In this document: positions 8,794 through 64,000 of the stretch, piece after piece
Layout: each line of letters opens with the position of its first letter
How positions within the stretch are numbered: the first letter of the stretch is position 1
IMG/VR virus record: IMGVR_UViG_2875713109_000001
Origin: a virus
Taxonomy: Duplodnaviria > Heunggongvirae > Uroviricota > Caudoviricetes
Length of the DNA stretch: 64,000 nucleotides
Reading direction: 5' to 3' (one strand)
Notes under the pieces: generated by a model
The model's database searches: none
What the model saw: only the letters and a program-made list of their open reading frames with translations
What the model was told of the DNA's origin: nothing
Program-made: the position numbers and the translations under genes

Positions 8794-8800
8794 AAAAGCT

Positions 8801-8832: not shown

Positions 8833-8959
8833 GATCGCTCTTTCTACACATGGTAGATGAGTAAGGCAAATCTAACCGATCTACTTTAGCTTTTCAATAG
8901 CTAGCTATAACTTTCCGCACATATTCTTCTGATAATTCCAGTATGGCTGTTGGGTTTTC

Positions 8960-9256: not shown

Positions 9257-9340
9257 AATATGCTCAAAATTTCGCTATACCAGCATAATTTAAGCACAAA
9301 AAAAGCTCCCGCAGGAGCTTTAAAATACAAGGGATGACTC

Positions 9341-9850: not shown

Positions 9851-9861
9851 ATAAAATCCTT

Positions 9862-10443: not shown

Positions 10444-10478
10444 TCAAGTTAAAGGCCGGAGTTCTCCGGCCTCCTCCT

Positions 10479-42211: not shown

Positions 42212-42421
42212 ATGGCTATCGCTGCAAGTTACACCATGCATCTCTATTGTGATTGCCTCCAGTGTACAGATGGCAAATATAAGTCGCCAGACTTCGGTGA
42301 GTATATAGGTACGTCATGGGCTGGCTGTGCAAAAGAGGCGCGCAAGGATGGCTGGCGAATAAGCAAAGACAAAACGCGTGCTTTTGCGCCCGGGCATAAA
42401 GTTTTGAGGATTAACAAATGA
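42212..42421 (+). CDS. hypothetical Cys-rich small protein
   Basis: 69 aa with CDCLQC; ATG with strong SD aaaggagag. Confidence 0.35.
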   Translation: MAIAASYTMHLYCDCLQCTDGKYKSPDFGEYIGTSWAGCAKEARKDGWRISKDKTRAFAPGHKVLRINK

Positions 42422-43134: not shown

Positions 43135-43216
43135 GCTGGCCTGAAGCATTCACCACGGTAGGAATTGTGATGGCGGCAGCACTGGGTTTGTATTCAATTT
43201 GTCGCTGGTGGTAACG

Positions 43217-43450
43217 ATGGGAAAAATAACTTTTGTAGTCGAATTTGAGGATGGCAAAGAGCCACCTGTTAGCGCCAATCTTGATGTTGCTGGTGGCAGG
43301 CTGGTTTCGGTTCTATTTGGTGATTACCGCGACGACTTCTTTCAGCCTGAAGAAGTTGATGTAGTGCGAGAAGCATTAAACGAGCTAAGTGTTGATAACG
43401 ATGATGCTCATGCGGAAATCATCAAAAAAATGGAACTGCTAACTCACTAA
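43217..43450 (+). CDS. hypothetical protein
   Basis: ATG at 43217 with SD ggtgg; ORF-track start 43199 is TTG. Confidence 0.35.
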   Translation: MGKITFVVEFEDGKEPPVSANLDVAGGRLVSVLFGDYRDDFFQPEEVDVVREALNELSVDNDDAHAEIIKKMELLTH

Positions 43451-43628
43451 ATTATCAATTATGGTGCTATCACCTACGACACCGAGAGAAAATTTATAAT
43501 GTCAAAAGTAAATGTTTTGATTTTTTCAGCAATTGTTGGCTTTGGTTTTACTGCCGGAGTGCAGATTTATATTGCGTGGGAAAAAATCATCAACTACGCA
43601 TGGAGTTGTTTTATTAAGTGAGGTAAGT

Positions 43629-43922
43629 ATGTGGAGAGGTAATAGTCATGGCAAAAGCCAGATGATACTTACCGAATATCAGTTTGACCATAAAACCAAT
43701 AAATCACGTTCAGTATATTTGCTTCGGCACAATAGCCGCGTAAGGAATACCGTGCTGGAGCAAAATCTGACTGTTGAAATGGATAATTACGGGGGCTTCA
43801 AGCCAACAATTTCGCTTGATGATTTTCCTCGTGGTTTAAGCGAAAGAGAAGCAATGCTGAAATTAGCAGAATGGCTACAAAGATTAAGCATTGCTATTGA
43901 AGATAACTGGTCTGAACCTTAA
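43629..43922 (+). CDS. hypothetical protein
   Basis: ATG at 43629 with SD gaggt; upstream part of track ORF lacks RBS. Confidence 0.35.
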   Translation: MWRGNSHGKSQMILTEYQFDHKTNKSRSVYLLRHNSRVRNTVLEQNLTVEMDNYGGFKPTISLDDFPRGLSEREAMLKLAEWLQRLSIAIEDNWSEP

Positions 43923-43928
43923 ATTTAT

Positions 43929-44303
43929 ATGATGACACTAAAACATTTTCTTGACCGCCCATTATGGGCGGCAGCCGCAGGCTATGACTTTAATTATATG
44001 GATTGCATGTCTTATACCGCCAATGCATACGACCATTCCTTCAGTCTGCTGTTTAATTCTTTAAGAATATTGCCGCAAACAGAAGTTGGAGAGCTTCATT
44101 TATGGCTATTGGGCTTTATCGCGGCTGGAGTTGGTATTGCTGTATGGCCTTTTATTTTCTGGCTGGTGGCTGTTGTAGTGTGGTTTAAGTGCAAGACGTA
44201 CCGGAAAAAGTATTTCTTAGGTGATGGAATGACTGATATTGCCAAAATGAACATTGAAAAATGGACTAAGGAATGTGAAAAGAAATGGCGCAAAAAGAAA
44301 TGA
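43929..44303 (+). CDS. membrane protein
   Basis: 124 aa; hydrophobic helix pair LWLLGFIAAGVGIAVWPFIFWLVAVVVWF then Lys-rich tail. Confidence 0.4.
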   Translation: MMTLKHFLDRPLWAAAAGYDFNYMDCMSYTANAYDHSFSLLFNSLRILPQTEVGELHLWLLGFIAAGVGIAVWPFIFWLVAVVVWFKCKTYRKKYFLGDGMTDIAKMNIEKWTKECEKKWRKKK

Positions 44304-44944
44304 CTACTCTAACGACAGCATACTTACAGCAATTGGTATTTTTTGCAGGCGAGGCTACTTGTCATCCTGACGCAAACTATTTATTGGAATTTGAGAGGTT
44401 AGCGTCACCCGGTATCGTTCTGGAACTGGCCCAACAGGTGCTGGCCTTAAGACAAAAAGAGCAACATGAAAGTAATACGTGTAGATTGAACTTTGAGCAG
44501 TGGCTGGAACAGCAACGCGGAAAAATCGATGTGGACTGTGGTTGTGTGTCTACTGAAACATTCATGCACTGGCTGCGGGTAGCTTACGAGGCTGGCAACT
44601 ATCCGGATATTCCGGATAGTTCGGTGCCAGGGCCAGGAAAGGGCGTCACCGGTGAACGTATCCGCATTAAGCCGCATGTTTATCGCGAACTGGTTAACCG
44701 TCTCCACGATACAGCGATCAAGTGTGCTGGCACCCAGCAATTACGAGAAAGAATTAGCCGTGTTTTGGGCGACGTTATTAAGCCAGACCATCATAAACAA
44801 GCCGAGAAAAGTGGCCTGGAAAGGTGTCACCTTGAGGCGGCATTAAACATTAACCCGGGGCATACGCTTGGCATTATTGATGCACTATTGGTTCATAAGA
44901 TGGCCAGGGCTTTATTGCCGCTGGTAGGGGGCAATGACAACTAG
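44285..44944 (+). CDS. hypothetical protein (prophage ea-type)
   Basis: 219-aa ORF with ATG start. Confidence 0.4.
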   Translation: MAQKEMTTLTTAYLQQLVFFAGEATCHPDANYLLEFERLASPGIVLELAQQVLALRQKEQHESNTCRLNFEQWLEQQRGKIDVDCGCVSTETFMHWLRVAYEAGNYPDIPDSSVPGPGKGVTGERIRIKPHVYRELVNRLHDTAIKCAGTQQLRERISRVLGDVIKPDHHKQAEKSGLERCHLEAALNINPGHTLGIIDALLVHKMARALLPLVGGNDN

Positions 44945-45028
44945 GAAAAAATCGCATTACTGGTGGCAAAGCCATAACTACTGATACAATATTTCTAGGT
45001 TAAAGATCTGGCATTAGGTAGAGATAGC

Positions 45029-45493
45029 ATGTTTCTTCATATCAATCCCGATTGGGCATCAGCTATTGCGGCATTTGGGTCAGCAATAGCTGCTTTTATT
45101 AGTTTGCGCACAAGTAAAAATCTTGGATTATTCGATAAGGAAAAATTTTATAGTGAAGCATTGATAAACTTTGCTGATAGGGCAAATAAAATAGCAACAG
45201 GAAAAGCTGGATCAGACTGGGATGTTAATGACGCAAGTAATATAATTCTTTCACTAAATGCCGCAAAAGAAACTATTGAAAGTGCGCCAAAACCTATTCG
45301 AGAGAAACTAAAACAATATTACAAACATAATCTTTGCCATGAGATCATAACTGAATTAGAGGCTCACTCTCCCCCAGATTCAGTAATTGTAAGAGAACCA
45401 TCAGAGTATGAAGGCAAGATCATGGGATTGTGGGATGAGATTAAAATATTTCTGGGTTATACAGTGGTATCAGAAGCAGACCTTGAAGATTAA
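45029..45493 (+). CDS. hypothetical membrane-anchored protein, AT-rich accessory gene
   Basis: 154 aa; N-terminal hydrophobic helix WASAIAAFGSAIAAFISL; SD aggtagaga; visibly AT-rich relative to flanks. Confidence 0.45.
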   Translation: MFLHINPDWASAIAAFGSAIAAFISLRTSKNLGLFDKEKFYSEALINFADRANKIATGKAGSDWDVNDASNIILSLNAAKETIESAPKPIREKLKQYYKHNLCHEIITELEAHSPPDSVIVREPSEYEGKIMGLWDEIKIFLGYTVVSEADLED

Positions 45494-45600
45494 AGTTTGG
45501 TGTGACCACATCATTTCATCAATGATGCCCGAAGTGGGGAGTTTGACGATTGTCCGGTGATTTAAGCTGCAAAGTGCTGGTGCTTTATGCTTGTGAAGTT

Positions 45601-50801: not shown

Positions 50802-50818
50802 CTTGCTCTAATAAATTG
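50802..50818 (+). promoter_or_regulatory. C1 operator-like site heading the second immI-like module
   Basis: cttgctctaataaattg, 15/17, 4 bp after pacB stop. Confidence 0.5.
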
Positions 50819-50950
50819 TGTTTTTTGACTGCCGATGTTACATTGAACCTGACCTCTTGCGCCTTGAGGCATTTTCGGTTTATGCTTATCAGGCACCTCA
50901 TTAAAACGGGTGCCGGGATTGGAACCCCGGATAATGCAAAAGGCGACACA

Positions 50951-50972
50951 GACGCCAAAAGCGTCTTTTTTT
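50951..50972 (+). terminator. terminator-like hairpin inside the module 2 leader
   Basis: gacgc-caaaa-gcgtc followed by ttttttt. Confidence 0.45.
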
Positions 50973-50989
50973 GTGTCATGCCATCGCAC

Positions 50990-51100
50990 AGCCATACGTA
51001 GCACATAGCTCCGAGATCAATGGTAGTGCTGGCTGGGCTGCCGAAAGGCAGGCCGGTTCCCTTTTGCGCCGGTAGTTCCAACCCAGTCAGTGCTACCGCC
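50990..51100 (+). ncRNA. candidate c4-type antisense RNA of second module (boundaries approximate)
   Basis: Contains gttccaa and cccttttg complementary to ttggaac and caaaagg, which occur both upstream (50912-50943) and overlapping the icd-like SD (51108-51149). Confidence 0.3.
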
Positions 51101-51157
51101 ATTGAGATTGGAACCTCACGCGGTAGCTCCTTAAGTTAGCAAAAGGAGGCTGCCATT

Positions 51158-51379
51158 GTGGCTACTATCCCTACCCCTGCTCATCCTGAATTTATCTGGC
51201 GCTTTTACTCCTGCCAAAAACGTCACTATCACTTCGTTATTGCACCGACAGAAGATGAGGCACGTTCTCAGCTTCCTGACGCCCCATGTATTTTCTCTGC
51301 CCGTTTTTCCACTGATTCACGCAATTCTCTCAGTTACTGGTGCCTCCCTGTTAACGCTTCTGCTCTGGAGGGGCTATGA
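51158..51379 (+). CDS. Icd-like protein (second copy)
   Basis: 73 aa; PEFIWRFYSC(Q/K)K(R/H)HYHFVIA shared with 4364..4585 product; GTG start with SD aaaaggagg. Confidence 0.6.
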   Translation: MATIPTPAHPEFIWRFYSCQKRHYHFVIAPTEDEARSQLPDAPCIFSARFSTDSRNSLSYWCLPVNASALEGL

Positions 51380-52491
51380 GAACATCATTAGTCACCCGTA
51401 AAGAAATGATCGAGGCAATTGAACAGCACACTGCCTGTATCAGTACCAGGGATATACCTGGCGTTATTGCCAACTACTTCATGATCACCAAACAACTTTA
51501 CCGGAGAAAGGACAAAAACGCGGTTCACCGCATTCTGCTAACCGATATCCGTGAATACCTGCTCGAACAGGGTCATCTGAATTACGCAACCGTCGCAGCC
51601 GAAGCACGCAAGGAGGCACACAGAATGAAAGCAACTAACGTTAAATCAGAAAAAACTCATGCACCTTCAGTTCAGGAATCGGAGCTGGTGGTTGTTCAGA
51701 ATCAGTCTGATGAAATTCCCGTTCTGGAATGGCTGGGAGTGCGTGTAGTGACAACTAAGATCCTTGCTAAGGGGTATGGGACAGATGCGGATAACATCAA
51801 GAAGAACTTTTCCCGTAATGCTGAACGTTTTTGTGAAGGCAAGCATTTCTATAAAGTTATTGGAGATGATTTGAACAATTTGCGGGTGACTTTAAGTAAC
51901 TCACAAAATCCTATCTCTCCTAAAGCCCGCTCACTCATCCTCTGGACGGAACGCGGCGCAGCCCGCCACGCTAAAATGATCGAAACCGATCAGGCATGGG
52001 CATTCTTTGAAAAACTGGAAGACAGCTACTTCCGACAAAAAGAACAGCAACCGATCGCAATCCCCCAGACGCTTCCAGAAGCTCTGCGCCTTGCTGCCGA
52101 ACTGGCTGAACAAAAGCAACTTCTGGAACAGAAAGCCCATCAGCTAAATCAGCAGCTGGTGGCCGCAGCCCCCAAAGTCGATTTTGCCGACCGGGTATCA
52201 GTGGCTAAGGGGATCCTGATTGGGAATTTTGCAAAGGTCGTTGGACTTAAACAAAATGCGCTGTTTGCCTGGTTACGGGAGAACGGCATTCTGATAGCGT
52301 CCGGCGGCCGTAAAAATGTACCGTTCCAGCAGTACATAAACGCCGGATATTTCACAGTGAAAGAAGTGGTGCTGGATGATGAAGAGGGCTACCAGATACG
52401 GCTGACGCCCCAATTAACGGGGAAAGGCCAACAGTGGTTGACGCGTAAACTGCTCGATGCTGGCTTGTTAAAACCGGTGGCGGCTGAATAA
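51376..52491 (+). CDS. antirepressor-like protein (Bro-N-like middle region plus Ant/KilA C-terminal domain)
   Basis: 371 aa; N-terminal about 80 aa and C-terminal about 140 aa homologous to Ant at 4582..5616, middle differs; ATG overlaps icd-like stop. Confidence 0.65.
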   Translation: MRTSLVTRKEMIEAIEQHTACISTRDIPGVIANYFMITKQLYRRKDKNAVHRILLTDIREYLLEQGHLNYATVAAEARKEAHRMKATNVKSEKTHAPSVQESELVVVQNQSDEIPVLEWLGVRVVTTKILAKGYGTDADNIKKNFSRNAERFCEGKHFYKVIGDDLNNLRVTLSNSQNPISPKARSLILWTERGAARHAKMIETDQAWAFFEKLEDSYFRQKEQQPIAIPQTLPEALRLAAELAEQKQLLEQKAHQLNQQLVAAAPKVDFADRVSVAKGILIGNFAKVVGLKQNALFAWLRENGILIASGGRKNVPFQQYINAGYFTVKEVVLDDEEGYQIRLTPQLTGKGQQWLTRKLLDAGLLKPVAAE

Positions 52492-52498
52492 TGGAAGA

Positions 52499-52520
52499 AT
52501 GCCCGGTTGATGCCGGGCAT
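52499..52520. terminator. bidirectional hairpin between ant-like gene and c1
   Basis: atgcccgg-ttgatg-ccgggcat perfect stem between convergent stops. Confidence 0.45.
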
Positions 52521-52523
52521 AAT

Positions 52524-53375
52524 TTATTGCGCGCTTTCGGGGTTGTCGTTTACTGGCTGCCCCTTCTTGGTTTTACGGCTGCGCGTAACTGATGCGGCTG
52601 ACTTAACCTTTTTCTCTTCGCGAGTGATGGCAATTTGTTTTTTTACATTTTCAATATCTGCCAGGCGATATATTTTTGCTTGTGGCCAGCGGTCGCAGAT
52701 GATCGGTTCTATGGAGTCATAAAGGCTAAATTTTGCTTTTTCGAATTCACCGTTGATGATGATTCCATCACGGAGAGTTTCATCGCAGATAAACACGCCA
52801 CACAGCGGTACATGGTAACTAACTGATTTACCATCATTGTAGTTAGGGCTACTGGAGATGTAGTGGACGCGCAGCATTGTTTCGCTAAAGCCGTGTACAC
52901 GCATACGGAATTTTTCATCCTCCGGGTACTGCCTCATTAGCTCTTTTGTTGCTTCCAGGTTCTCTATGTATTTCGCACTGTGCTCATTGATCCCCGCGCT
53001 TTTTTGGATGCGAATGTCCTTATCAATCAGATGAATAATGCGGCCAGCGGTCATGTTGACGCTGTTCACAGCTTCTGTCTGATAAGTTGTAACCTTGCGC
53101 ACACCGCGAAGGATGTTAGGCACTGGATATAAAATAGTCTTTGGGATATTGAGGTCTGGGTACTGTTCCAGTTCCCGCGCCATTAAAGTCCATTTATCAA
53201 TTTCAGCCTGAATGCTGTCAGTTTCTTTGAACGGTAGAACGACAACCGGGCGTACAGGACGACCGTCGCTGGCTGTATCAACGTGTTGGGCGCGTGCAAC
53301 AGCTTTTTTTAGAAAGAGATCCCTGAAGCTGACGAACTCCTGGTACAGTTGTTCGCCGTAGACATAATTTATCAT
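52524..53375 (-). CDS. c1: C1 repressor of lysis
   Basis: 283-aa ORF; strong SD ggaggag; position next to coi and loxP and surrounded by operator copies, as P1 immC. Confidence 0.8.
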   Translation of the reverse strand: MINYVYGEQLYQEFVSFRDLFLKKAVARAQHVDTASDGRPVRPVVVLPFKETDSIQAEIDKWTLMARELEQYPDLNIPKTILYPVPNILRGVRKVTTYQTEAVNSVNMTAGRIIHLIDKDIRIQKSAGINEHSAKYIENLEATKELMRQYPEDEKFRMRVHGFSETMLRVHYISSSPNYNDGKSVSYHVPLCGVFICDETLRDGIIINGEFEKAKFSLYDSIEPIICDRWPQAKIYRLADIENVKKQIAITREEKKVKSAASVTRSRKTKKGQPVNDNPESAQ

Positions 53376-54076: not shown

Positions 54077-54110
54077 ATAACTTCGTATAGCATACATTAT
54101 ACGAAGTTAT
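54077..54110. other. loxP: loxP site-specific recombination site
   Basis: Exact ATAACTTCGTATA-GCATACAT-TATACGAAGTTAT, 34 bp. Confidence 0.95.
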
Positions 54111-54129
54111 CTTAAGGGTTATTGAACAT

Positions 54130-54202
54130 GATCAATTTACCTGTAAATCCATACAGTTCAATACCTTATCAGGTCAAATAGTGATCACTTGATCATTTGA
54201 TC
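54130..54202 (+). promoter_or_regulatory. GATC cluster in cre upstream region (Dam-sensitive promoter candidate)
   Basis: GATC at 54130, 54183, 54191, 54199 read directly. Confidence 0.4.
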
Positions 54203-54299
54203 AAGGTTGCGCTACGTAAAATCTGCGAAATGTTGGCAGTGTTAGTGCTCCAGATTTCGCGTAGCGCACTTAGCACCACCAATCAATCAGAGGTGAAAA

Positions 54300-54521
54300 A
54301 TGGGATATTCAGCTGCTAAAGTGTCCACTCATCTTGAGCTTGAGAAAAACCGTGGTTACTGGCGGGCAAAAGGGTTTGATCGTGATAGTTGTCAACTGTC
54401 ATTATCGCGCGGTGAAGAGAAAATAGAACGCACGCGCGGTCGCTGGCGTTTCTATGACGAGAACCATAAACAGGTAAAGGCAGAGCCGATCCTGTACACT
54501 TTACTTAAAACCATTATCTGA
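54300..54521 (+). CDS. hypothetical small protein between loxP and cre
   Basis: 73-aa ORF with ATG and strong SD agaggtgaaaa; may be spurious. Confidence 0.3.
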   Translation: MGYSAAKVSTHLELEKNRGYWRAKGFDRDSCQLSLSRGEEKIERTRGRWRFYDENHKQVKAEPILYTLLKTII

Positions 54522-54528
54522 GTGTTAA

Positions 54529-55560
54529 ATGTCCAATTTACTGACCGTACACCAAAATTTGCCTGCATTACCGGTCGATGCAAGGAGTGATGAGGTTCGC
54601 AAGAACCTGATGGACATGTTCAGGGATCGCCAGGCGTTTTCTGAGCATACCTGGAAAATGCTTCTGTCCGTTTGCCGGTCGTGGGCGGCATGGTGCAAGT
54701 TGAATAACCGGAAATGGTTTCCCGCAGAACCTGAAGATGTTCGCGATTATCTTCTATATCTTCAGGCGCGCGGTCTGGCAGTAAAAACTATCCAGCAACA
54801 TTTGGGCCAGCTAAACATGCTTCATCGTCGGTCCGGGCTGCCACGACCAAGTGACAGCAATGCTGTTTCACTGGTTATGCGGCGGATTCGAAAAGAAAAC
54901 GTTGATGCCGGTGAACGTGCAAAACAGGCATTGGCGTTCGAACGCACTGATTTCGACCAGGTTCGTTCACTCATGGAAAATAGCGATCGCTGCCAGGATA
55001 TACGGAATCTGGCATTTCTGGGGATTGCTTATAACACCCTGTTACGTATAGCCGAAATTGCCAGGATCAGGGTTAAAGATATCTCACGTACTGACGGTGG
55101 GAGAATGTTAATCCATATTGGCAGAACGAAAACGCTGGTTAGCACCGCAGGTGTAGAGAAGGCACTTAGCCTGGGGGTAACTAAACTGGTCGAGCGATGG
55201 ATTTCTGTCTCTGGTGTGGCTGATGATCCGAATAACTACCTGTTTTGCCGTGTCAGAAAAAATGGTGTTGCCGCGCCATCTGCCACCAGCCAGCTATCAA
55301 CTCGCGCTCTGGAAGGGATTTTTGAAGCAACTCATCGATTGATTTACGGCGCTAAGGATGACTCTGGGCAGAGATACCTGGCCTGGTCTGGACACAGTGC
55401 CCGTGTCGGAGCCGCGCGAGATATGGCCCGCGCCGGAGTTTCAATACCGGAGATCATGCAAGCTGGTGGCTGGACCAACGTAAATATTGTCATGAACTAT
55501 ATCCGTAACCTGGATAGTGAAACAGGGGCAATGGTGCGCCTGCTGGAAGATGGCGATTAG
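54529..55560 (+). CDS. cre: Cre tyrosine recombinase
   Basis: 343 aa, matches Cre (MSNLLTVHQNLPALPVD...LEDGD) with one apparent difference from my recalled reference (DARSDE versus DATSDE). Confidence 0.97.
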   Translation: MSNLLTVHQNLPALPVDARSDEVRKNLMDMFRDRQAFSEHTWKMLLSVCRSWAAWCKLNNRKWFPAEPEDVRDYLLYLQARGLAVKTIQQHLGQLNMLHRRSGLPRPSDSNAVSLVMRRIRKENVDAGERAKQALAFERTDFDQVRSLMENSDRCQDIRNLAFLGIAYNTLLRIAEIARIRVKDISRTDGGRMLIHIGRTKTLVSTAGVEKALSLGVTKLVERWISVSGVADDPNNYLFCRVRKNGVAAPSATSQLSTRALEGIFEATHRLIYGAKDDSGQRYLAWSGHSARVGAARDMARAGVSIPEIMQAGGWTNVNIVMNYIRNLDSETGAMVRLLEDGD

Positions 55561-55577
55561 CCATTAACGCGTAAATG

Positions 55578-55594
55578 ATTGCTCTAATTCTTTG
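55578..55594 (+). promoter_or_regulatory. weak C1 operator-like site after cre
   Basis: attgctctaattctttg, 13/17. Confidence 0.35.
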
Positions 55595-55610
55595 ATATTT
55601 ATGGTGACAT

Positions 55611-55922
55611 ATGAGAAAGGATTTCAACATCGACGGAAAATATGTAGTGCTGTCTGTAAGCACTAATATTCAGTCGCCAGCCGTCATTGTCACTGTAAAG
55701 CTGAGCGATAGAATGCCTGATATTGATTCAATATCCGTTGCGTTCCCTGTCAAAAGTATGCGTGGTGCTGAACATTTCGTGATGAATGCCACCGAGGAAG
55801 AAGCACGGCGCGGTTTTGCTAAAGTGATGTCTGAGTTTGGCGAATTTTTGGGGCACGTTGACAAAGCCCTCTCAATCAGTTCAGCAAGGTCCAAAGCGTT
55901 AACAGCTTCCATGATGAAATAA
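55611..55922 (+). CDS. hypothetical cre-adjacent protein (cra position)
   Basis: 103-aa ORF, ATG start, followed by hairpin gcctggc-aagg-agccaggc. Confidence 0.45.
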   Translation: MRKDFNIDGKYVVLSVSTNIQSPAVIVTVKLSDRMPDIDSISVAFPVKSMRGAEHFVMNATEEEARRGFAKVMSEFGEFLGHVDKALSISSARSKALTASMMK

Positions 55923-56053
55923 AAAAAGCCTGGCAAGGAGCCAGGCTGCACAAAAGAGCGGGTTTGTATTCCGCATCCAATCAATCAAGAAGGAGTATAG
56001 CACACAGGTACTGAAGTGAAAAAATGTGATTCGCGAGAAACAAAATATCTACC

Positions 56054-56083
56054 ATTGCTCTAATTGATTGCTATAATTGAGCC
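56054..56083 (+). promoter_or_regulatory. tandem C1 operator-like sites upstream of ref
   Basis: attgctctaattgattg (14/17) overlapping attgctataattgagcc (11/17). Confidence 0.45.
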
Positions 56084-56169
56084 GCAGTTTTTGTCAACTA
56101 CGAAGACGTTGCCATTACTTCACTCCTTGACATCATAGGCGGCCATTAGGCCGCCTTTTTTTTGACCAT

Positions 56170-56730
56170 ATGAAAACAATCGAACAAAAAATTGAACAGT
56201 GCCGCAAGTGGCAGAAGGCAGCCAGAGAACGAGCGATCGCTCGGCAACGGGAGAAGTTGGCTGATCCGGTCTGGCGAGAATCTCAATATCAGAAAATGCG
56301 GAATACTATCGATCGCCGTATCGCTAAACAGAAAGAGCGCCCACCAGCCAGCAAAACGCGGAAAAGCGCGGTAAAAATAAAATCTCGTGACTTGAAGGGA
56401 CGAACACCGACGGCGGAGGAACGGCGCATAGCCAATGCTCTTGGCGCTCTCCCCTGCATTGCCTGCTATATGCATGAAGTAATATCTGAAGAGGTGTCTC
56501 TGCACCATATCTCCGGTCGTACCGCGCCTGGTTGTCACAAAAAGCAATTGCCACTTTGTAGATGGCACCACCAGCATGCAGCACCGGCTGAAGTAAGAGA
56601 AAAATACCCCTGGCTGGTCCCTGTTCATGCCGATGGTGTGGTTGGAGGCAAGAAAGAATTCACCTTGCTGAACAAGTCAGAGATGGAGTTGCTGGCTGAC
56701 GCCTATGAAATGGCAAACATCATGCACTAA
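56170..56730 (+). CDS. ref: Ref recombination enhancement HNH endonuclease
   Basis: 186 aa; Cys/His HNH-like cluster CIACYMHEV...HHISG...CRWHHQH; position after cre as in P1. Confidence 0.85.
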   Translation: MKTIEQKIEQCRKWQKAARERAIARQREKLADPVWRESQYQKMRNTIDRRIAKQKERPPASKTRKSAVKIKSRDLKGRTPTAEERRIANALGALPCIACYMHEVISEEVSLHHISGRTAPGCHKKQLPLCRWHHQHAAPAEVREKYPWLVPVHADGVVGGKKEFTLLNKSEMELLADAYEMANIMH

Positions 56731-56768
56731 TAAATATATTATTTTTAATCTTAAATGATTGACAACTG

Positions 56769-56789
56769 ACAAGTGACTTGAGTCAGAAT
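56769..56789 (+). promoter_or_regulatory. candidate Lpa-dependent late promoter upstream of mat
   Basis: ACAAGTGAC-ttgagt-CAGAAT, 20 nt upstream of ATG 56809. Confidence 0.4.
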
Positions 56790-56808
56790 CATCACACGCC
56801 CGGTACGG

Positions 56809-57561
56809 ATGGATCCCTTTTCAAATATTCCATGGACGGCACAGTCTGAGTACCGGGCGCTACCTTCTGTTGTATTGCTAAGCCGCCGCTGGTGGCTTTT
56901 CTTTTTTGTAGGGGGCGCTATGGATAAGAAAATATGCGTTGTTTCAATGAGCGTCGGCAAACCGGCGTCAATGACTGCTGCATGGATCAACAATGAGCTG
57001 ATAATGGCTGAGCGGACCAGCTACCCTGAACGCCGCCGCGATATGGAACTCCAGCTGCTGCGCGAATTGCGAGAAAAAGAGGAAAAGGGTTTTATCGTGC
57101 TGGTGGAAGAGGAAAACAGCTTTATTACCGGTCGAGTTGGCCAGCGTGTAAGGTTGCGTGATCCCTTCATGAACGGTAGACCGGTACTGATTGAAGCAAT
57201 GCAGATTTACAAGGAATTGGAACGCCAGAAAGCGATCAAGTTACCGCGCAAGGAATCCGGCAAATACATCCTCCACCAAAGCATCTTCGATTCCGAACAT
57301 GACAAAAAAGGCGATGAATTTTTCAACATCAACTGGAGCGAAATAACGACAGAGCACGTTCTGACGTTGTTATGCTGCTTCGCAACGGAATACAACAACG
57401 TTGCAAACTCCGACTACATCAGGGCAATGGCTGGAGAAGTTGAGCCACGCCAGGAACCATCGTTACTAAGCCCACTGATTAACATAATTCGCGGCACACA
57501 GAGACTTGCGGAAAAAAGCGTTCCACATGGAATCTTAACTGGAAAGGGAAACTATTTTTAA
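56809..57561 (+). CDS. mat: Mat-like maturation control protein (start uncertain, alternative ATG 56920 with better SD)
   Basis: ORF between ref and res as P1 mat; N-terminal 37 aa hydrophobic and unusual. Confidence 0.5.
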   Translation: MDPFSNIPWTAQSEYRALPSVVLLSRRWWLFFFVGGAMDKKICVVSMSVGKPASMTAAWINNELIMAERTSYPERRRDMELQLLRELREKEEKGFIVLVEEENSFITGRVGQRVRLRDPFMNGRPVLIEAMQIYKELERQKAIKLPRKESGKYILHQSIFDSEHDKKGDEFFNINWSEITTEHVLTLLCCFATEYNNVANSDYIRAMAGEVEPRQEPSLLSPLINIIRGTQRLAEKSVPHGILTGKGNYF

Positions 57562-57603
57562 CGACCTGAGCGCCACTTCTTTCAGGTCGTGTTGGATGTC
57601 ATA

Positions 57604-57627
57604 AAAAGGAGGTTTTCACCTCCTTTT
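57604..57627. terminator. bidirectional rho-independent terminator between mat and res
   Basis: aaaaggaggt-tttc-acctcctttt perfect hairpin flanked by A and T runs. Confidence 0.55.
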
Positions 57628-57636
57628 AAACTGGAA

Positions 57637-60549
57637 TTATGGTAATGCGCTCTTGATTAACTGATAAATATCATCATTAGCAAACTGCGTTTTGAATTCA
57701 ACTTTAACAGACTGACTTATTTGATTGAAAAGCGCCTGGGCATGTTCAATTTTCTTTTTTTCTTCAAGCCGTAAACTATCCTTACTATCTACGTTTTTTG
57801 TTTCAATGATAAAGTTAAGATAATCACCTTCTGCTGTTTTTACAACATAAGCAAAATCGGGTGAGTAAGTGTATCCACCAGCTACCGGGATCTTAATAGA
57901 ATTCTTCGGTATCTTTGAAAAAACAACAACAGACTGGATCTCTCTATCTGTTATATTACGCCTTTCAAGCTCTGAATCATAAAAAACCTCTTCAAAAAGA
58001 TAAGTATCTAATGGTGCTTTTGAATTATCCTGTAATACACCAAGATCACTTGATAATACCTCGTCTAGAGGCTTACCATCAGCATTTGTGAACTTTGTGG
58101 GATGAATTGAACCCGAAATCAAATTATATCCGAGGCTGAATTTGTTAAACGAATTGTTCAACAAATACTTACTAAAACCAGATTTAATTTTTCTGATTGT
58201 TTGAATATTCAGGTATTCAGTGATATTAATAGTGTCTTTTATATCACAAAAAACTTTATGTAAAGTATCGTGTTTAACAAAAATAGTCTGTGATAAGTTA
58301 TCGAGAAACTCTCGATAACTCATTGTGTTTAGCTTAGCAAAGTCATCGTCATCACTAACAATGCTTTTCGACATTGCCATATCATTGTGGATGTAAATTT
58401 TATCAATGCGAGTATGAACGCCTGATTTGGTAAATCGTTCTGTTTCTTCGAGCATGAATGACTTGAAAATGGATAAAAACTCATTTTCACTGTTTATTTT
58501 GTACTCAATCACCGCTTTTTGATTGATTAATTCCCATAGTTCTTTCAGCTCACTGAACTTACCAACACGCATTTTAGTGCGTCTTTTTCCATCAGTAGCT
58601 TTTTTGATTTTACCTGGTTTCACTCCTATAGGGAATGCTGCTGGATATTTGGATTTTAAGCGGCTGTAGGCATCTGAATCTTTGAAATTATCATTTTCAT
58701 CAATGATTTCATCATTGAAAAGTTCATTCATTAGTGCTCTGGATGAAAGCTCAGGATACTGAGCCCTGATTTGTTCCTTAAGCTCTTGAGTAAACTTACT
58801 TGGAACCCTTTCTTTGAAAGAACTCTCATTGACCTCTTTAACAAGTGAGTCAACAAAATCCTTTTCTGTAAAATCGACATAATATTTAAGGGTAAAATTG
58901 CGGTCTTTCACTCGACACATGTATTCATTCACAGGAAGACGCAAACCGCGCCCTACCTCTTGAAGCTTGGATGTGGTACTACCGCTCGAACGGAGCTTAC
59001 AGATCTGAAAGACATTAGGATTATCCCATCCCTCACGCAACGTCCATTTGGAGAAAATGAAACGACGTGGATTATCTAAAGACAGCAAAAGCTCTTTGTC
59101 ATGAAGGATTTCGTTGATTTCCTTCTCGATTTTATCATCCTTATCACTGTTATCTTTTGAAAAATAACCGCCATGAACGGAAGATATATCTTTAACTGTT
59201 TTTTCAAGATAGTTACTATAAAACTCATCTTTTTCTATTTTTAACAGTTCATTAGCTTCTGCCAAAACATATTCTTCGAACTTAGCTTTCAAACTTCCGG
59301 CAATATTATTACCGTCACGATAACCTTCAATATCATCAATAAAGAAAAGAGTAAGAGGCTTTATGCGTGGCCTTTGTGTCAGAAACTCTTTTTCTAACTT
59401 AAAGTGTTCTTTGATAGCTTTCCTCATCATGCTGTCAGCAAGTGTCTGATCGTAAGAATAGGGGTTTATTGAGCAACCAATTTTTAGCTCAATACCATTA
59501 CTCAACACTACTGTATTCTTGCCTAAGGCATCAAGAGTTAAATCGTGAATAGCACTATGTGTCTTAGATAGAGATTCACCTTTTGTTAACTTAAATAAAG
59601 TTTTCTTGTTATTTTCATTTAGCTCAAATGTAACTTCTTCCCCATCAGATTTAATGAACTTTAGGTTGGCGTCACCATCACCAACAATATCCTCAATGTA
59701 CGCATCAATACCTTTAACAAGGTCTTCATTAAATGCATCCACAGCTGTAAGTCGATAAACTAAATTCTTATAGCCTTCACTAAAGGTCGCACCGTAGCGG
59801 ATAATATATTGAGCATTAAACTTCTCTATATTTTCCCATGTCTTTTTACCAGTAGGAAATTTATGTGGTTCATCAATGATAATGAATGGTTTTACCGCAC
59901 CAAGAGCTGAAAAGGGAGAATCAAAATGATTGTCAAGCAAGCCAACATCATAAGTGGAATTTAAATTCTTAGAGTGAATCATTCCCGTGTTAATAACAAG
60001 AACGTGTATATATTTCTTATTGAAATTACTAGCTTCAACAAAATCATGTATAGCTTGAGGCATATACGATTTTGTGCTTTTACCGGCATTTTTCTGACTT
60101 TCAACAACGTAAGTCTTTATTTCACGCTCATAATCATCTCTAAAGTGTTCTTTTAACGCATCGCTTTTCAAAAAGTTCACTGTTCCAGCTTTGATCGATA
60201 GAGTAGGAACAATAATGATAAACTTATTAATGCCAAATGATTTGTTCAGATCAAAAATTGTTTTAGTGTAGGTATACGTTTTACCTGTACCTGTCTCCAT
60301 AGAAACATCGATTACGTTGCTTCCAGCATCGTAATTATTTTTTACATGTTCAATACCATTGAGTTCCTGAACTTTTTTTATATTTTTATAGTATTGCTGT
60401 TCAGTAAGCCGTAATTCTGGATTAACTAACAGGCGAATAGAAACATTATCCTCCTGATGAGATGTCGCGGAAACAAAAACGTTCATCACCGCATCGACAC
60501 CTGCTTTCTGATGCGGTAAGTTCTTTTCGAATGTGAACCCTTTTGACAT
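57637..60549 (-). CDS. res: type III restriction enzyme Res subunit
   Basis: 970 aa; helicase Walker A GTGKT and DEPH-box IIDEPHKF; AT-rich. Confidence 0.9.
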   Translation of the reverse strand: MSKGFTFEKNLPHQKAGVDAVMNVFVSATSHQEDNVSIRLLVNPELRLTEQQYYKNIKKVQELNGIEHVKNNYDAGSNVIDVSMETGTGKTYTYTKTIFDLNKSFGINKFIIIVPTLSIKAGTVNFLKSDALKEHFRDDYEREIKTYVVESQKNAGKSTKSYMPQAIHDFVEASNFNKKYIHVLVINTGMIHSKNLNSTYDVGLLDNHFDSPFSALGAVKPFIIIDEPHKFPTGKKTWENIEKFNAQYIIRYGATFSEGYKNLVYRLTAVDAFNEDLVKGIDAYIEDIVGDGDANLKFIKSDGEEVTFELNENNKKTLFKLTKGESLSKTHSAIHDLTLDALGKNTVVLSNGIELKIGCSINPYSYDQTLADSMMRKAIKEHFKLEKEFLTQRPRIKPLTLFFIDDIEGYRDGNNIAGSLKAKFEEYVLAEANELLKIEKDEFYSNYLEKTVKDISSVHGGYFSKDNSDKDDKIEKEINEILHDKELLLSLDNPRRFIFSKWTLREGWDNPNVFQICKLRSSGSTTSKLQEVGRGLRLPVNEYMCRVKDRNFTLKYYVDFTEKDFVDSLVKEVNESSFKERVPSKFTQELKEQIRAQYPELSSRALMNELFNDEIIDENDNFKDSDAYSRLKSKYPAAFPIGVKPGKIKKATDGKRRTKMRVGKFSELKELWELINQKAVIEYKINSENEFLSIFKSFMLEETERFTKSGVHTRIDKIYIHNDMAMSKSIVSDDDDFAKLNTMSYREFLDNLSQTIFVKHDTLHKVFCDIKDTINITEYLNIQTIRKIKSGFSKYLLNNSFNKFSLGYNLISGSIHPTKFTNADGKPLDEVLSSDLGVLQDNSKAPLDTYLFEEVFYDSELERRNITDREIQSVVVFSKIPKNSIKIPVAGGYTYSPDFAYVVKTAEGDYLNFIIETKNVDSKDSLRLEEKKKIEHAQALFNQISQSVKVEFKTQFANDDIYQLIKSALP

Positions 60550-60551
60550 GA

Positions 60552-62492
60552 TTAGTTCCTTACCACTAAATCTAACTCAATAGATTTTTTGTTAGCATAA
60601 CTTTTTAGCGCCTCATTAAGCTCCCTTTGTTTTGCACTTTCAAAGTTACAACCATAAAACACGACTTTGTTTGGGGCAAAATCTTCATCTGAATCCAGCT
60701 TTTGGAGCAACGCTTTCAATGCTTCGCTAGTAAAATTAGGTGCAATCAAATACAGACGGCCATTGCAAAAGTGTGCTGTATAGCCACTAAGATCAACATC
60801 TTCAATAGGTGTTGTTAACAAGCTACCATCATATACACACCATGTAGTCAATAGGGCATCATACTGTTCAGGCGTTAATACCGCATCATCAAAGAATGTA
60901 TGATTAGTGAGCGTAAGTTCAGACTCAACTTTTGCTCTAAAGTCATCAATAGTATGAATCACTTTGAAACCTATTTTAGCCGCATTATCACTTGTGGTTG
61001 TGCTTTTTTTAAATACCTCCTGTATCCTTTTTTTTGTTATTTCAAAAATAGATCTATAGCCAAGAGAATAGGCATTCTTTGTTTTATTTATAACTTCATC
61101 TTTTTGTATGCATATAAAATTCCTACAGCCTGAATCTTTTTCATTTAAATATGCAACAGCTTCTGCTGTCGTACCAGAGCCAGCAAAAAAGTCAAGAACT
61201 AATGAATCCTTTTTTGTTCCTATTTTTACAAGATCGGTTATAAGAGGAACAGGTTTTGGTCCTTCAAATAATTTTGCACCTAAAAGATTTTTAAGCTCAG
61301 TTGTCGCCGTGCTTGTACTATATTCAGGTTTATACCAAATTGATTTTGGCTTTTTAGTTGGTAGCTCTCCAAGAGCAGGCCGCTGTTTTTTATAGATATT
61401 TTTACCATCTTTTATATCTATTACTATTAGATTATAAAACTCATCATTTATTTTTTTCTTTCCCCACGACCATGAAAGCTCTTCACCCGTAGGGCTTACT
61501 GGGTAAAGTACATAGTCATCTTCGTTAAGAGGTTTATCATCATCTGTTACATAAACCTTATTTTCTGAATTGATGAATACCGGAAACCAACCTTTTGGTC
61601 TTGATTTTCTAGAAGCATCTTGGCCAGTACGCTTTAATGTATCAGCTCTTTTAAATAGCCCATATTCATCTTCATCCCACTCTTTTTCAACTTCACTTTC
61701 ATCAATATCGAATTGCCCCAAACTACAAACATCTTTGTTTTTAGCGTATACATATATATATTCATGCGTATCTGAAAAGCCAAAGTTATCATGATTGCCT
61801 TTGAGATTCATGATTGTAGGGAGTTTTGCAACAAAATTACCTTGCCCAAATACTTCGTCGCATAATAATCCCAACTGTTTATCTTCGTTATCGTCTATGG
61901 AGATGAATATTACTCCATCCTCTTTTAAAAGTTCACGTGCAATATAAAGACGAGGATAAATGAATGTCAGCCATGCACTATGACTGCTTGAACCCTTGGT
62001 GGTAAATTCAAGTATGCGGTTAGCCTCATCAAGCTCGATACCTGCCAGTTCAGAAAGCTGTTCTGGTGTAAACTTGCGATCATCGTTATAGACGAATCCA
62101 TCTTTACCCGTATTGTATGGTGGGTCAATGTAAATCATATTCACCTTTTCAGCATAAGCATTAACCATATGCTTCAATACTTCGAGGTTATCCCCTTTGA
62201 TTAACAGGTTTTGACTGTTCTTGTTCTCTTCTTGTTGGTTATGTGTTTTATCTTCTGCCAACAACGTTTTCGGTGGTAGATTGGCCAACAAACGGGCATA
62301 AGATTTACCCAGCCAGTTTAAACTGTATGATTCTTTAGAGAGTTCAACCTCCGATGCTCTAATAATCTCAAGCAATTTTTCTTGAATGAAGGCTCCGTTT
62401 TTATCAAAACACTGTGGGAAATTAGCTTTCAACACAGCCAGTTGCTTGCTGTTAGCCGTTTCTACTTCGGAAAAAATCGTTTCTTTTTTCAT
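60552..62492 (-). CDS. mod: type III modification methyltransferase Mod
   Basis: N6-adenine MTase motifs IYIDPPYNTG and FFAGSGTT; start set at MKKETIF to give 646 aa as recalled for EcoP1I Mod; ORF-track start 62513. Confidence 0.9.
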   Translation of the reverse strand: MKKETIFSEVETANSKQLAVLKANFPQCFDKNGAFIQEKLLEIIRASEVELSKESYSLNWLGKSYARLLANLPPKTLLAEDKTHNQQEENKNSQNLLIKGDNLEVLKHMVNAYAEKVNMIYIDPPYNTGKDGFVYNDDRKFTPEQLSELAGIELDEANRILEFTTKGSSSHSAWLTFIYPRLYIARELLKEDGVIFISIDDNEDKQLGLLCDEVFGQGNFVAKLPTIMNLKGNHDNFGFSDTHEYIYVYAKNKDVCSLGQFDIDESEVEKEWDEDEYGLFKRADTLKRTGQDASRKSRPKGWFPVFINSENKVYVTDDDKPLNEDDYVLYPVSPTGEELSWSWGKKKINDEFYNLIVIDIKDGKNIYKKQRPALGELPTKKPKSIWYKPEYSTSTATTELKNLLGAKLFEGPKPVPLITDLVKIGTKKDSLVLDFFAGSGTTAEAVAYLNEKDSGCRNFICIQKDEVINKTKNAYSLGYRSIFEITKKRIQEVFKKSTTTSDNAAKIGFKVIHTIDDFRAKVESELTLTNHTFFDDAVLTPEQYDALLTTWCVYDGSLLTTPIEDVDLSGYTAHFCNGRLYLIAPNFTSEALKALLQKLDSDEDFAPNKVVFYGCNFESAKQRELNEALKSYANKKSIELDLVVRN

Positions 62493-62643
62493 ATCCATTT
62501 TAAACCAGATCATTTAGCAACAAAGCGCCGCCTCCCCAGCCCGTTAGAGCCAGAAGTTGTGGCACTATCACTATCTATATGTTTGAAGAATCGTGCTTCT
62601 TTGAGCGATGCTCGGTGAGCAAACAGCCATAATTTGGGGAAGT

Positions 62644-62892
62644 TTAATCCGCATTGAGAAGCAATGCATTATCTATGATGATCTGCTCCCATTCTTCGAA
62701 TGCCCGGTCACGGACGCCCTGGGGAACGCTGTTAGTTTTGAAATCGACGACCGTACGCCATTTCCCGTCCGGACGGTACATGCGCAGAGCTTTACTTCCC
62801 CCTTCCCTGCGCACCTCAACGTTATGCTTATCAGCAAACTCTTGTAATGCTCGTAGCGTCCCATGCTTTACTGTGTAGTATCGCTTTTTCAA
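62644..62892 (-). CDS. lxc: Lxc-like small basic protein
   Basis: 82-aa ORF directly downstream of mod as P1 lxc; TTG start with SD ggagag. Confidence 0.5.
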   Translation of the reverse strand: MKKRYYTVKHGTLRALQEFADKHNVEVRREGGSKALRMYRPDGKWRTVVDFKTNSVPQGVRDRAFEEWEQIIIDNALLLNAD

Positions 62893-63329
62893 GTTTTCTC
62901 TCCAGCCTGTGCCAAGGCTTCAACTTCCAAATCGTAAGACTCAAACTCATAGTCCTGGTCGTCAACTTCTTCAGGCACTGGCAGTAAATGCCAGGCTGAG
63001 TATATCTGACCATTATCAAAACGCTCCTGGCTGTAGAGCGTCGCGGCTATGAGTGTTAGCGCCGGGCGGTCATAACGGTAAATTTTGCGAACGTCACGGT
63101 CAACGAGACGACCGAAATTACCATAACCGCGCTCCAGTAATAATTTTTTAATTTCCGGCCAGTATGGACCATAGCTGCGGTACAGGCGGGGATTTTTCAG
63201 TAATCGCCCGCGTAGCCCTGACAGGAAGAAATCAACGTATTCGTCTTCTGTCTTTCCTAACAACGCTGTACGGAGTACCGCCTCAAGATATGTTTTATTC
63301 GGTTTTATTGTATCAGATAGTGTGGCCAT
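62889..63329 (-). CDS. hypothetical protein
   Basis: 146-aa ORF, ATG start; stop overlaps lxc start. Confidence 0.4.
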   Translation of the reverse strand: MATLSDTIKPNKTYLEAVLRTALLGKTEDEYVDFFLSGLRGRLLKNPRLYRSYGPYWPEIKKLLLERGYGNFGRLVDRDVRKIYRYDRPALTLIAATLYSQERFDNGQIYSAWHLLPVPEEVDDQDYEFESYDLEVEALAQAGEKT

Positions 63330-63362
63330 ATTATGCGACGCCCGGCGAACCGGGCGCTCCTG

Positions 63363-63974
63363 TTATGCGTATTGTTGGATGACGGCCAGAACGTCCGCCA
63401 CGTTGTGTTTTGTCTCGATAATCCACCAGTTACCTGGGAAGTCGCTGTTCTTCGCCTTCGCTGGCAACCAGCGAGCGCCGAATTTCGCCTTGATTGCGTC
63501 TTTCGCACGGAAAAGAACCCCTTTCATGCCGGAGGCTTCCTGAAGCCCAAATACCTCGCCAGCGGCGAATTTTGGTGCGTACATCATCTTCAGGTCGGCG
63601 GTGGATACGCGATAATTCAGACCAAGAGACTGAGCTATGCTGGTGGCATCACCCTGTATTGATGATAACTCTTCTTGTTTCTCGTTTCTGGCGGCAATTT
63701 CTTCCTCCGTGATGTTGCCAAGGGCCAGGTTTATCCGATCAGCATCTGCCTGTTTCTCTTCATCGGTGCGCCCGGCAAGTACCGTGTTAATTCTGTGCAA
63801 TATCTCCACATGATTCTTGCGCATGCTGAGCAATTCCGGCGTAACCTCGTTAAGGTCCACCAGCCCAAGGATGGCAAGGTCGGTAAACATTGATACCAGG
63901 TTGTAGGTCATGCGATAGCTGAGTTGCCCATAGGCTGATGGCAACTGCACCGCATCCATTTGATAGGCATCCAT
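63363..63974 (-). CDS. hypothetical protein
   Basis: 203-aa ORF, ATG start. Confidence 0.4.
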   Translation of the reverse strand: MDAYQMDAVQLPSAYGQLSYRMTYNLVSMFTDLAILGLVDLNEVTPELLSMRKNHVEILHRINTVLAGRTDEEKQADADRINLALGNITEEEIAARNEKQEELSSIQGDATSIAQSLGLNYRVSTADLKMMYAPKFAAGEVFGLQEASGMKGVLFRAKDAIKAKFGARWLPAKAKNSDFPGNWWIIETKHNVADVLAVIQQYA

Positions 63975-64000
63975 AAATTTAGAGCCGTCGTTTACGACAT

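What the first reader, a model, noticed from the sequence alone, without database searches (positions are those of the whole stretch)
57637..62513. Low-GC type III restriction-modification operon (res-mod)
Canonical Mod and Res motifs and P1-like lengths, with convergent placement against mat and a shared bidirectional terminator. The system is a known type, but the Mod target-recognition region between the catalytic motifs is the variable part and the specificity cannot be read from sequence.
Basis: partly seen in the sequence, partly recalled or inferred. Interest (0 to 1): 0.3.

Follow-up and report, generated by a model that had tools for sequence, protein, structure and literature searches.

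The report
Phage P1's EcoP1I restriction-modification operon
This is the textbook EcoP1I type III restriction-modification operon of bacteriophage P1, sitting intact in a P1-like phage-plasmid with a methyltransferase identical to the published one, so it is ordinary and its DNA target (AGACC) is already known.

Summary
Window 57637-62513 (minus strand) holds mod followed by res, in the P1 backbone context cre-c8-ref-mat / lxc-ulx-darB. The 646-aa Mod is 100% identical to M.EcoP1I (GenBank X06287). The 970-aa Res differs from P1 Res at two residues, and P7 Res carries both of those variants. The whole 5,082-bp module occurs at 100% identity in several public P1-like plasmids.

Confirmed:
- GC is low: 35-36% against 47.7% for the rest of the window.
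- All Mod and Res motifs are present.
- The 2-bp mod-res gap is present.
- res converges on mat across a 75-bp spacer that holds an A-tract/hairpin/T-tract element (57604-57627), which could terminate transcription in both directions. This is inferred, not shown.

One correction: the accepted mod start is 62492 (MKKETIF), not the longest-ORF ATG at 62513.

Side observation: the mat-lxc interval is a swappable cargo slot in P1-family phages. It holds EcoP1I, CapRel(SJ46), a PIN protein, a DUF2971 protein, or nothing.

The parts
57637..60549 (-). res: the EcoP1I restriction subunit, 970 aa. It combines an SF2 helicase-like ATPase with a C-terminal PD-(D/E)xK nuclease.
   Evidence: ORF. Pfam ResIII, DEAD and RE_endonuc. 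PADLOC REase_III over the full length, 1680 bits. Full-length match to EcoP15I Res, PDB 4ZCF_C, 2004 bits. It differs from P1 Res only at G76 (R in P1) and E618 (D in P1), and from P7 Res only at L590 (F) and Q593 (L).
60552..62492 (-). mod: the EcoP1I modification and recognition subunit, 646 aa from the accepted start MKKETIF. An in-frame upstream ATG at 62513 would add 7 aa.
   Evidence: 100% identical to CAA29614 (X06287) and one residue different from P7 Mod (T560I). Pfam N6_N4_Mtase plus T3RM_EcoP15I_C. PADLOC MTase_III, 839 bits. DPPY lies at aa 123-126 and FAGSG at aa 436-440.
61311..61727 (-). Target-recognition region of Mod, roughly aa 256-394. This is the stretch with no detectable similarity to EcoP15I Mod.
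   Evidence: phmmer against 4ZCF_A aligns only residues 8-262 and 402-653 of the 653-aa ORF, which correspond to 1-255 and 395-646 of the 646-aa protein. The N-terminal 253 aa are 85% identical to EcoP15I. The literature reports that the central third is non-homologous and determines specificity (PMC3874151).
60550..60551 (-). The 2-bp gap between the mod stop codon and the res start codon (TAA-TC-ATG).
   Evidence: Sequence. It matches the published 2-bp gap described in PMC3874151 section 13.
57604..57627 (.). Candidate bidirectional intrinsic terminator between the convergent genes mat and res: A-tract, GGAGGT, 4-nt loop, ACCTCC, T-tract.
   Evidence: Perfect 10-nt inverted repeat. The hairpin folds at -13.1 kcal/mol on the plus strand and -14.6 on the minus strand, z = -3.8 and -4.7, and 0 of 200 shuffles fold as well. 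The T-run is better on the res strand (UUUUUAUG) than on the mat strand (UUUUAAAC). Function is inferred, not shown.
57561..57590 (.). A second hairpin that abuts the mat stop codon (9-bp stem, 12-nt loop). It has no T-run on either strand, so it is not a canonical terminator.
60984..61012 (-). P2res (formerly PR1), a sigma-70 promoter for res that lies inside mod. P1res maps to 60651-60679 and P3res to 61019-61045.
   Evidence: Mapped from the P1 annotation (AF234172) by coordinate offset. No base in these intervals differs from P1 (the SNP list). The scanner independently found TTAAAA-17-GATAAT at 61012..60984. The literature reports that res is transcribed from a promoter within mod.
62543..62669 (-). 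The tandem mod promoters P1mod (62543-62571) and P2mod (62641-62669). P2mod overlaps the 3' end of lxc.
   Evidence: Mapped from the P1 annotation. The DNA is identical to P1 here. The literature reports two tandem mod promoters.
57562..62636 (.). Extent of the low-GC res-mod cassette within the P1 backbone, i.e. the mat-lxc slot.
   Evidence: Homology to RCS47 (empty slot) and SJ46 (CapRel in the slot) ends at about 57516-57561 and resumes at 62637-62643. GC drops across these limits.
61741..61744 (.). TTAG, the site where the P1 reference strain (mod749::IS5) carries IS5. It is uninterrupted here, so mod is intact.

Best explanation
The locus is the EcoP1I type III restriction-modification system of a P1-family phage-plasmid, intact and essentially the reference allele.

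How it works (established knowledge of EcoP1I, not tested here): Mod forms a dimer, recognises the asymmetric site 5'-AGACC-3' through its central recognition domain, and uses SAM to methylate the central adenine on one strand. Res is an SF2 helicase-like ATPase fused to a PD-(D/E)xK nuclease. It binds Mod2 to form the endonuclease. ATP hydrolysis switches the site-bound complex into a state that slides along DNA in one dimension. Cleavage occurs about 25-27 bp from a site when two unmethylated sites lie in inverted orientation.

Expression: mod is transcribed from two tandem promoters next to lxc. res is transcribed from promoters inside mod, its ATG lies 2 bp after the mod stop codon, and Res needs Mod for stability, so modification comes before restriction after infection. 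Transcription of res, and of the convergent mat gene, probably stops at the hairpin at 57604-57627.

Shown here: the identity to EcoP1I, the motifs, the gene layout, and the conservation of the annotated promoters. Taken from the literature: the enzymology and regulation. Inferred: the terminator.
For: - The DNA is 99.9% identical over 5.3 kb to P1, P7 and the original EcoP1 record X06287.
- Mod is 646/646 identical to X06287 Mod. Res differs from P1 Res at 2 of 970 residues, and both variants occur in P7 Res.
- The 5,082-bp module occurs at 100% identity in at least 5 public plasmids. Fifty plasmid records match at 99% identity or more. Among 5,426 complete E. coli genomes, 41 match at 99% or more.
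- Domain architecture and motifs are complete.
- Both subunits match the EcoP15I crystal structure 4ZCF, and the Mod match breaks only in the central recognition region.
- The gene neighbourhood is the P1 one: cre, c8, ref, mat, then res, mod, lxc, ulx, darB.
- The 2-bp mod-res gap matches the published description.
- AGACC specificity and methylation of the internal adenine are reported in PMC2962900 and PMC3874151.
- There are no frameshifts, IS elements or phase-variation tracts.
Against: Nothing argues against the identification. Three caveats remain. Activity in this particular element is not demonstrated. The Res allele is a P1/P7 mosaic (G76, L590, Q593, E618) that has not itself been assayed here. 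The terminator and the choice between the ATGs at 62492, 62498 and 62513 rest on annotation and sequence alone, because none of the three has a well-placed Shine-Dalgarno sequence.
Confidence: 0.97

Rival explanations
1. A P1-like type III system with a new recognition specificity, caused by a divergent Mod target-recognition domain.
For: In general, type III Mod proteins differ mainly in the central region. EcoP1I and EcoP15I do so. Related operons at 80-95% identity exist in other Enterobacteriaceae plasmids.
Against: Mod here is 646/646 identical to M.EcoP1I, including the whole central region.
Confidence: 0.01
2. A silent or crippled copy that is modification-proficient but restriction-deficient, because of the Res substitutions or altered expression.
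For: Res differs from P1 Res at G76 and E618, and residue 76 lies 11 residues before the Walker A motif. Laboratory P1 strains often carry R-M defects, for example mod749::IS5 in the reference.
Against: Both substitutions are the residues found in P7 Res, and L590 and Q593 are the P1 residues. The identical allele is conserved at 100% in several independent plasmids. All catalytic motifs are intact and all annotated promoters are unchanged. There is no IS5.
Confidence: 0.03
3. A phase-variable type III mod (a 'phasevarion'), as in Haemophilus, Neisseria and Helicobacter, that switches expression through simple-sequence repeats.
For: Many type III mod genes in host-adapted pathogens are phase-variable (general knowledge).
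Against: There is no repeat tract. Tandem Repeats Finder finds only 2-copy chance repeats, and the longest simple runs are T8 at 61028 and (AT)5 at 61752.
Confidence: 0.005

Closest known systems
EcoP1I (bacteriophage P1 res/mod; GenBank X06287, AF234172/NC_005856)
   Same: The Mod protein is identical. Res is 968/970 identical. The DNA has 5 mismatches in 5,119 bp. The position (mat-lxc), orientation, 2-bp mod-res gap and annotated promoters are all the same.
   Different: Res has G76 where P1 has R, and E618 where P1 has D. The sequenced P1 reference strain has IS5 inserted in mod, whereas mod is intact here.
EcoP7 R-M of phage P7 (AF503408)
   Same: The operon and slot are the same, with 5 DNA mismatches in 5,301 bp. 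Res residues G76 and E618 are shared. The 856 bp on the mat side of the cassette are 100% identical.
   Different: Res is L590/Q593 here and F/L in P7. Mod is T560 here and I in P7.
EcoP15I (plasmid p15B; PDB 4ZCF)
   Same: The architecture is the same. Res matches over its full length at 2004 bits. The N-terminal 253 aa of Mod are 85% identical, and the C-terminal ~250 aa are also highly similar.
   Different: The central Mod region (about aa 256-394) is unrelated. EcoP15I recognises CAGCAG and EcoP1I recognises AGACC.

Membership tests
Type III restriction-modification systems | Mod subunit: an N6-adenine (amino) methyltransferase with the beta-class motif order, catalytic DPPY upstream of the SAM-binding FxGxG, and a recognition domain between them | tested here: met
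   DPPY at aa 123-126 and FAGSG at aa 436-440. Pfam N6_N4_Mtase 1.1e-42 and T3RM_EcoP15I_C 3.8e-34. PADLOC MTase_III 6e-253.
Type III restriction-modification systems | Res subunit: SF2 helicase-like ATPase motifs plus a C-terminal PD-(D/E)xK endonuclease domain | tested here: met
   TGTGKT at 87-91, DEPH at 226-229, QEVGRGLR at 530-537 and PD...ExK at 897-923. Pfam ResIII and RE_endonuc. PADLOC REase_III E = 0.
Type III restriction-modification systems | Two-gene mod-then-res arrangement on one strand, closely juxtaposed | tested here: met
   The mod stop codon and the res ATG are separated by 2 bp on the minus strand.
Type III restriction-modification systems | ATP-dependent cleavage about 25-27 bp from the site, requiring two inversely oriented unmethylated sites, with hemimethylation of an asymmetric site | not testable with these tools
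   This is biochemistry. It is known for EcoP1I from the literature (abstracts) and is inferred here from protein identity.
EcoP1I specifically (specificity AGACC) | Mod target-recognition region identical to M.EcoP1I | tested here: met
   646/646 identity to CAA29614 of X06287.
EcoP1I specifically (specificity AGACC) | Location in a P1-family genome between mat and lxc | tested here: met
   Collinear with P1 positions 1-11106 and with P7. The rest of the window is 92-98% identical to the P1/P7 backbone.
EcoP1I specifically (specificity AGACC) | m6A at the central A of AGACC in DNA of a strain carrying the element | not testable with these tools
   This needs methylome sequencing.

The most novel reading that the evidence does not exclude
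The operon itself is not new. The most novel reading left open concerns its location. The mat-lxc interval of P1-family phage-plasmids appears to be a dedicated, precisely bounded slot for swappable anti-phage cargo. It holds EcoP1I here and in P1 and P7, CapRel(SJ46) in SJ46 and 673R5, a PIN-domain protein in JL22, an unannotated DUF2971 protein in MH422554, and nothing in RCS47. The EcoP1I cassette also seems to have spread recently between diverged backbones, because it is 99.9-100% identical where the flanks are only about 98%. If no one has yet described this as a hotspot, the uncharacterised occupants are candidate defence genes.
Probability: 0.3. Interest if true: 0.3.

Novelty: already known. 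Interest (0 to 1): 0.05.

Why it matters
It matters little as a discovery, because EcoP1I has been sequenced since 1988 and is one of the two model type III enzymes. The result is still useful in three ways:
- The finding can be closed. The specificity is AGACC, and no methylome experiment is needed to rule out a new recognition domain.
- It identifies the window as a P1-family phage-plasmid that carries an intact EcoP1I, unlike the IS5-disrupted reference strain.
- It gives exact cassette boundaries. Together with the alternative occupants in related phages, these mark mat-lxc as a cargo slot that could be mined for defence genes.

Tried and rejected
- New specificity: rejected, because Mod is identical to EcoP1I.
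- Phase variation: rejected, because there are no repeat tracts.
- IS disruption as in the P1 reference: rejected, because a single TTAG is intact at 61741-61744.
- Consensus promoter scan: uninformative, with 17 sites against 18.3 expected. The terminator scan did not call the mat-res hairpin because its stem extends into the T-run, so I folded the region directly instead.
- Rfam scan of 56500-63500 at E <= 0.1: no RNA family found.
- P1 genome paper (tried as PMC523184): not held in the library. I therefore could not check whether its authors annotated a mat/res terminator or commented on the low GC. The GenBank records list no terminator there.
- Choice of mod start from a Shine-Dalgarno sequence: inconclusive. 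GGAGG lies 17 nt upstream of the ATG at 62513, and there is no good Shine-Dalgarno before 62498 or 62492. I followed the deposited annotations and the EcoP15I crystal construct.
- OP279344 looked like another occupant of the slot, but it is an engineered P1 res/mod deletion, so I ignored it.

Full report
**What is there.** Window 57637-62513 contains two long minus-strand ORFs. The first is 57637..60549 (970 aa). The second is 60552..62513 (653 aa as the longest ORF). The neighbouring ORFs identify the context. A Cre-type recombinase gene lies at 54529..55560, followed by ref-like and mat-like ORFs on the plus strand, and lxc, ulx and the 3' end of darB lie on the minus strand after 62644. GC falls from about 0.45-0.51 in the flanks to 0.32-0.39 across the two ORFs. 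The values are 0.348 for res and 0.360 for mod, against 0.477 for the rest of the window.

**Identity.** Megablast of 57400-62700 against the phage collection gives 100% coverage at 99.8-99.9% identity to phage P7 (AF503408), phage P1 (AF234172/NC_005856/AF234173), phi456 and vB_EcoM-813R1. The original 1988 EcoP1 record X06287 matches at 97% coverage and 99.9% identity. Those records annotate the two genes as res and mod of the type III system EcoPI/EcoP7.

A base-by-base comparison shows:
- 5 mismatches to X06287 in 5,119 bp.
- 5 mismatches to P7 in 5,301 bp.
- Mod, taken from the accepted start MKKETIF (646 aa), is 100% identical to X06287 Mod and differs from P7 Mod at one residue (T560I).
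- Res differs from P1 Res at G76 (R in P1) and E618 (D in P1), and from P7 Res at L590 (F) and Q593 (L). It is therefore a mosaic of residues that all occur in natural alleles.

The P1 reference strain is mod749::IS5. The window has a single uninterrupted TTAG at the IS5 target (61741-61744), so mod is intact here.

The 5,082-bp module from the mat stop to the lxc stop occurs at 100% identity in several public plasmids of E. coli and Salmonella. In the plasmid collection, 50 records match at 99% identity or more. Among 5,426 complete E. coli genomes, 41 match at 99% or more.

**Family features.**
- Pfam finds ResIII, DEAD and a C-terminal RE_endonuc domain in Res, and N6_N4_Mtase plus T3RM_EcoP15I_C in Mod.
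- PADLOC finds full-length REase_III and MTase_III.
- Motifs: Mod has DPPY at 123-126 upstream of FAGSG at 436-440. Res has TGTGKT at 87-91, DEPH at 226-229, QEVGRGLR at 530-537 and PD...ExK at 897-923.
- Both proteins match the EcoP15I crystal structure 4ZCF. Res matches over its full length (2004 bits).
- Mod matches in two blocks only, residues 1-255 and 395-646 of the 646-aa protein. The N-terminal 253 residues are 85% identical.
- The unmatched centre is the recognition region. The literature describes it as the 'totally non-homologous' central third that sets specificity (PMC3874151).

**Specificity.** The whole Mod, including that centre, is identical to M.EcoP1I. The specificity is therefore not open.

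**Expression signals.**
- The mod stop codon and the res ATG are separated by 2 bp (TAA-TC-ATG), as published.
- The sigma-70 promoters annotated in P1 map onto the window by coordinate offset. P1res, P2res and P3res lie inside mod at 60651-60679, 60984-61012 and 61019-61045. P1mod and P2mod lie at 62543-62571 and 62641-62669.
- None of these intervals contains any of the few SNPs relative to P1. P2res was also picked up independently by the scanner.
- The review reports separate transcription of mod (two tandem promoters) and res (a promoter within mod), and reports that Mod stabilises Res. This explains why modification precedes restriction after infection.

**Terminator claim.** mat ends at 57561 and res ends at 57637, so the two genes converge across 75 bp.
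- The spacer contains a hairpin at 57561-57590 with no T-run on either strand.
- It also contains a perfect 10-bp inverted repeat at 57604-57627: an A-tract, GGAGGT, a 4-nt loop, ACCTCC and a T-tract.
- That second element folds at -13.1 kcal/mol on the plus strand and -14.6 on the minus strand. None of 200 shuffles folds as well.
- The T-run after the GC core is better for res (UUUUUAUG) than for mat (UUUUAAAC).
- The consensus scanner missed it because the stem extends into the T-run. The GenBank records annotate no terminator there.
- A shared bidirectional terminator is therefore a reasonable inference, not a demonstrated fact.
- Comparison with phages whose slot is empty (RCS47) or holds other cargo (SJ46) shows that these hairpins belong to the res-mod cassette, not to the backbone. 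Each variant has its own hairpin.

**Start codon.** All deposited annotations and the EcoP15I crystal construct start at MKKETIF, which is window 62492. No candidate ATG has a well-placed Shine-Dalgarno sequence, so I follow the accepted start.

**Rivals.**
- New specificity is excluded by identity.
- Phase variation is excluded, because there is no repeat tract.
- A restriction-deficient allele is unlikely. Every variant residue occurs in P1 or P7 Res, and the identical allele is conserved in independent plasmids.
- No Rfam family matches in or around the operon.

**Context and side observations.** The window is a P1-family phage-plasmid. Its backbone is 92-98% identical to P1, P7 and related records, with several replaced segments.
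- The res-mod cassette (57562-62636) is 99.90% identical to P1 (5 mismatches in 5,075 bp). The flanks are 97.9% and 98.2% identical (97 differences in 4,832 bp; Fisher p about 1e-24). This suggests recent exchange of the cassette between diverged backbones.
- Backbone homology to RCS47 and SJ46 breaks at about 57516-57561 and resumes at 62637-62643.
- In related phages the same mat-lxc slot is empty (RCS47, 39 bp) or carries other cargo. SJ46 carries the anti-phage toxin-antitoxin CapRel(SJ46), a 373-aa protein with a full-length match to PDB 7ZTB, the structure deposited with PMC9712102.
- JL22 carries a PIN-domain protein with a weak PADLOC PDC-S34 match. MH422554 carries an unannotated 346-aa DUF2971 ORF.
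- The slot therefore behaves as a defence-cargo hotspot. A general statement that phage-plasmids exchange defence systems, especially R-M systems, is already in the literature (PMC10879196).
- The EcoP1I site AGACC occurs 56 times in the window, against 82 +/- 9 in dinucleotide-preserving shuffles. This is a modest depletion, and I did not test it against codon-aware models.

**Verdict.** The system is the already-known EcoP1I with known specificity. Interest is low.

Noticed in passing
window 57562-62636; L004:1775-2896; L005:1662-1702; L008:1987-2937; L010:1408-2448: The mat-lxc interval of P1-family phages is a precisely bounded, swappable cargo slot. It holds EcoP1I res-mod (this window, P1, P7), CapRel(SJ46) (SJ46; full-length match to PDB 7ZTB), a 316-aa PIN_12 protein with a weak PADLOC PDC-S34 match (JL22), an unannotated 346-aa DUF2971 ORF (MH422554), or nothing, with a 39-bp gap (RCS47)..
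   Followed up: partly
window 54094-64000: The res-mod cassette is 99.90% identical to P1 (5 mismatches in 5,075 bp). The flanking backbone is only 97.9% (left) and 98.2% (right) identical (Fisher p about 1e-24). The cassette is also 100% identical to several plasmids whose backbones differ by 2-3%. This suggests recent horizontal exchange of the cassette among P1-like elements.
   Followed up: partly
whole window: The EcoP1I target AGACC is modestly depleted. There are 56 occurrences on both strands, against 82 +/- 9 in dinucleotide-preserving shuffles, and all 100 shuffles have at least 56. The count is at the 7th percentile of all 5-mers. The operon itself has only 3 sites, all in one orientation. 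I did not test this against codon-aware models.
   Followed up: partly
window 61741-61744: The sequenced P1 reference (mod749::IS5) has IS5 inserted at this TTAG inside mod. The window has the uninterrupted site, so it carries a wild-type mod, as P7 does.
   Followed up: yes
window 50806-52524 (ORF 51376-52491, +): An extra 371-aa antirepressor-like gene (ORF6N plus KilAC/ANT domains) lies between pacB and c1, where P1 and P7 have nothing. The DNA is 71-81% similar to the P1 icd/ant region, so it may be a second, diverged ant-type module next to the immunity repressor.
   Followed up: partly
window 2659-4034 (ORFs 2687-3226 and 3230-3751, -): The P1 superimmunity region (simABC) is replaced by two unrelated genes: a DUF5384 protein and a protein with a sub-threshold TraT-like match (23.1 bits against a cutoff of 31).
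   Followed up: partly
window 25564-27018 (ORF 26173-27000, +): A 275-aa SPFH/Band 7 protein lies in a segment with no counterpart in P1 or P7.
   Followed up: no
window 41166-45495: This variable region is largely unrelated to P1 and P7. It holds an Ead/Ea22-like ORF, a DUF551 ORF and four ORFs without any Pfam match (43629-43922, 43929-44303, 44285-44944, 45029-45493).
   Followed up: no
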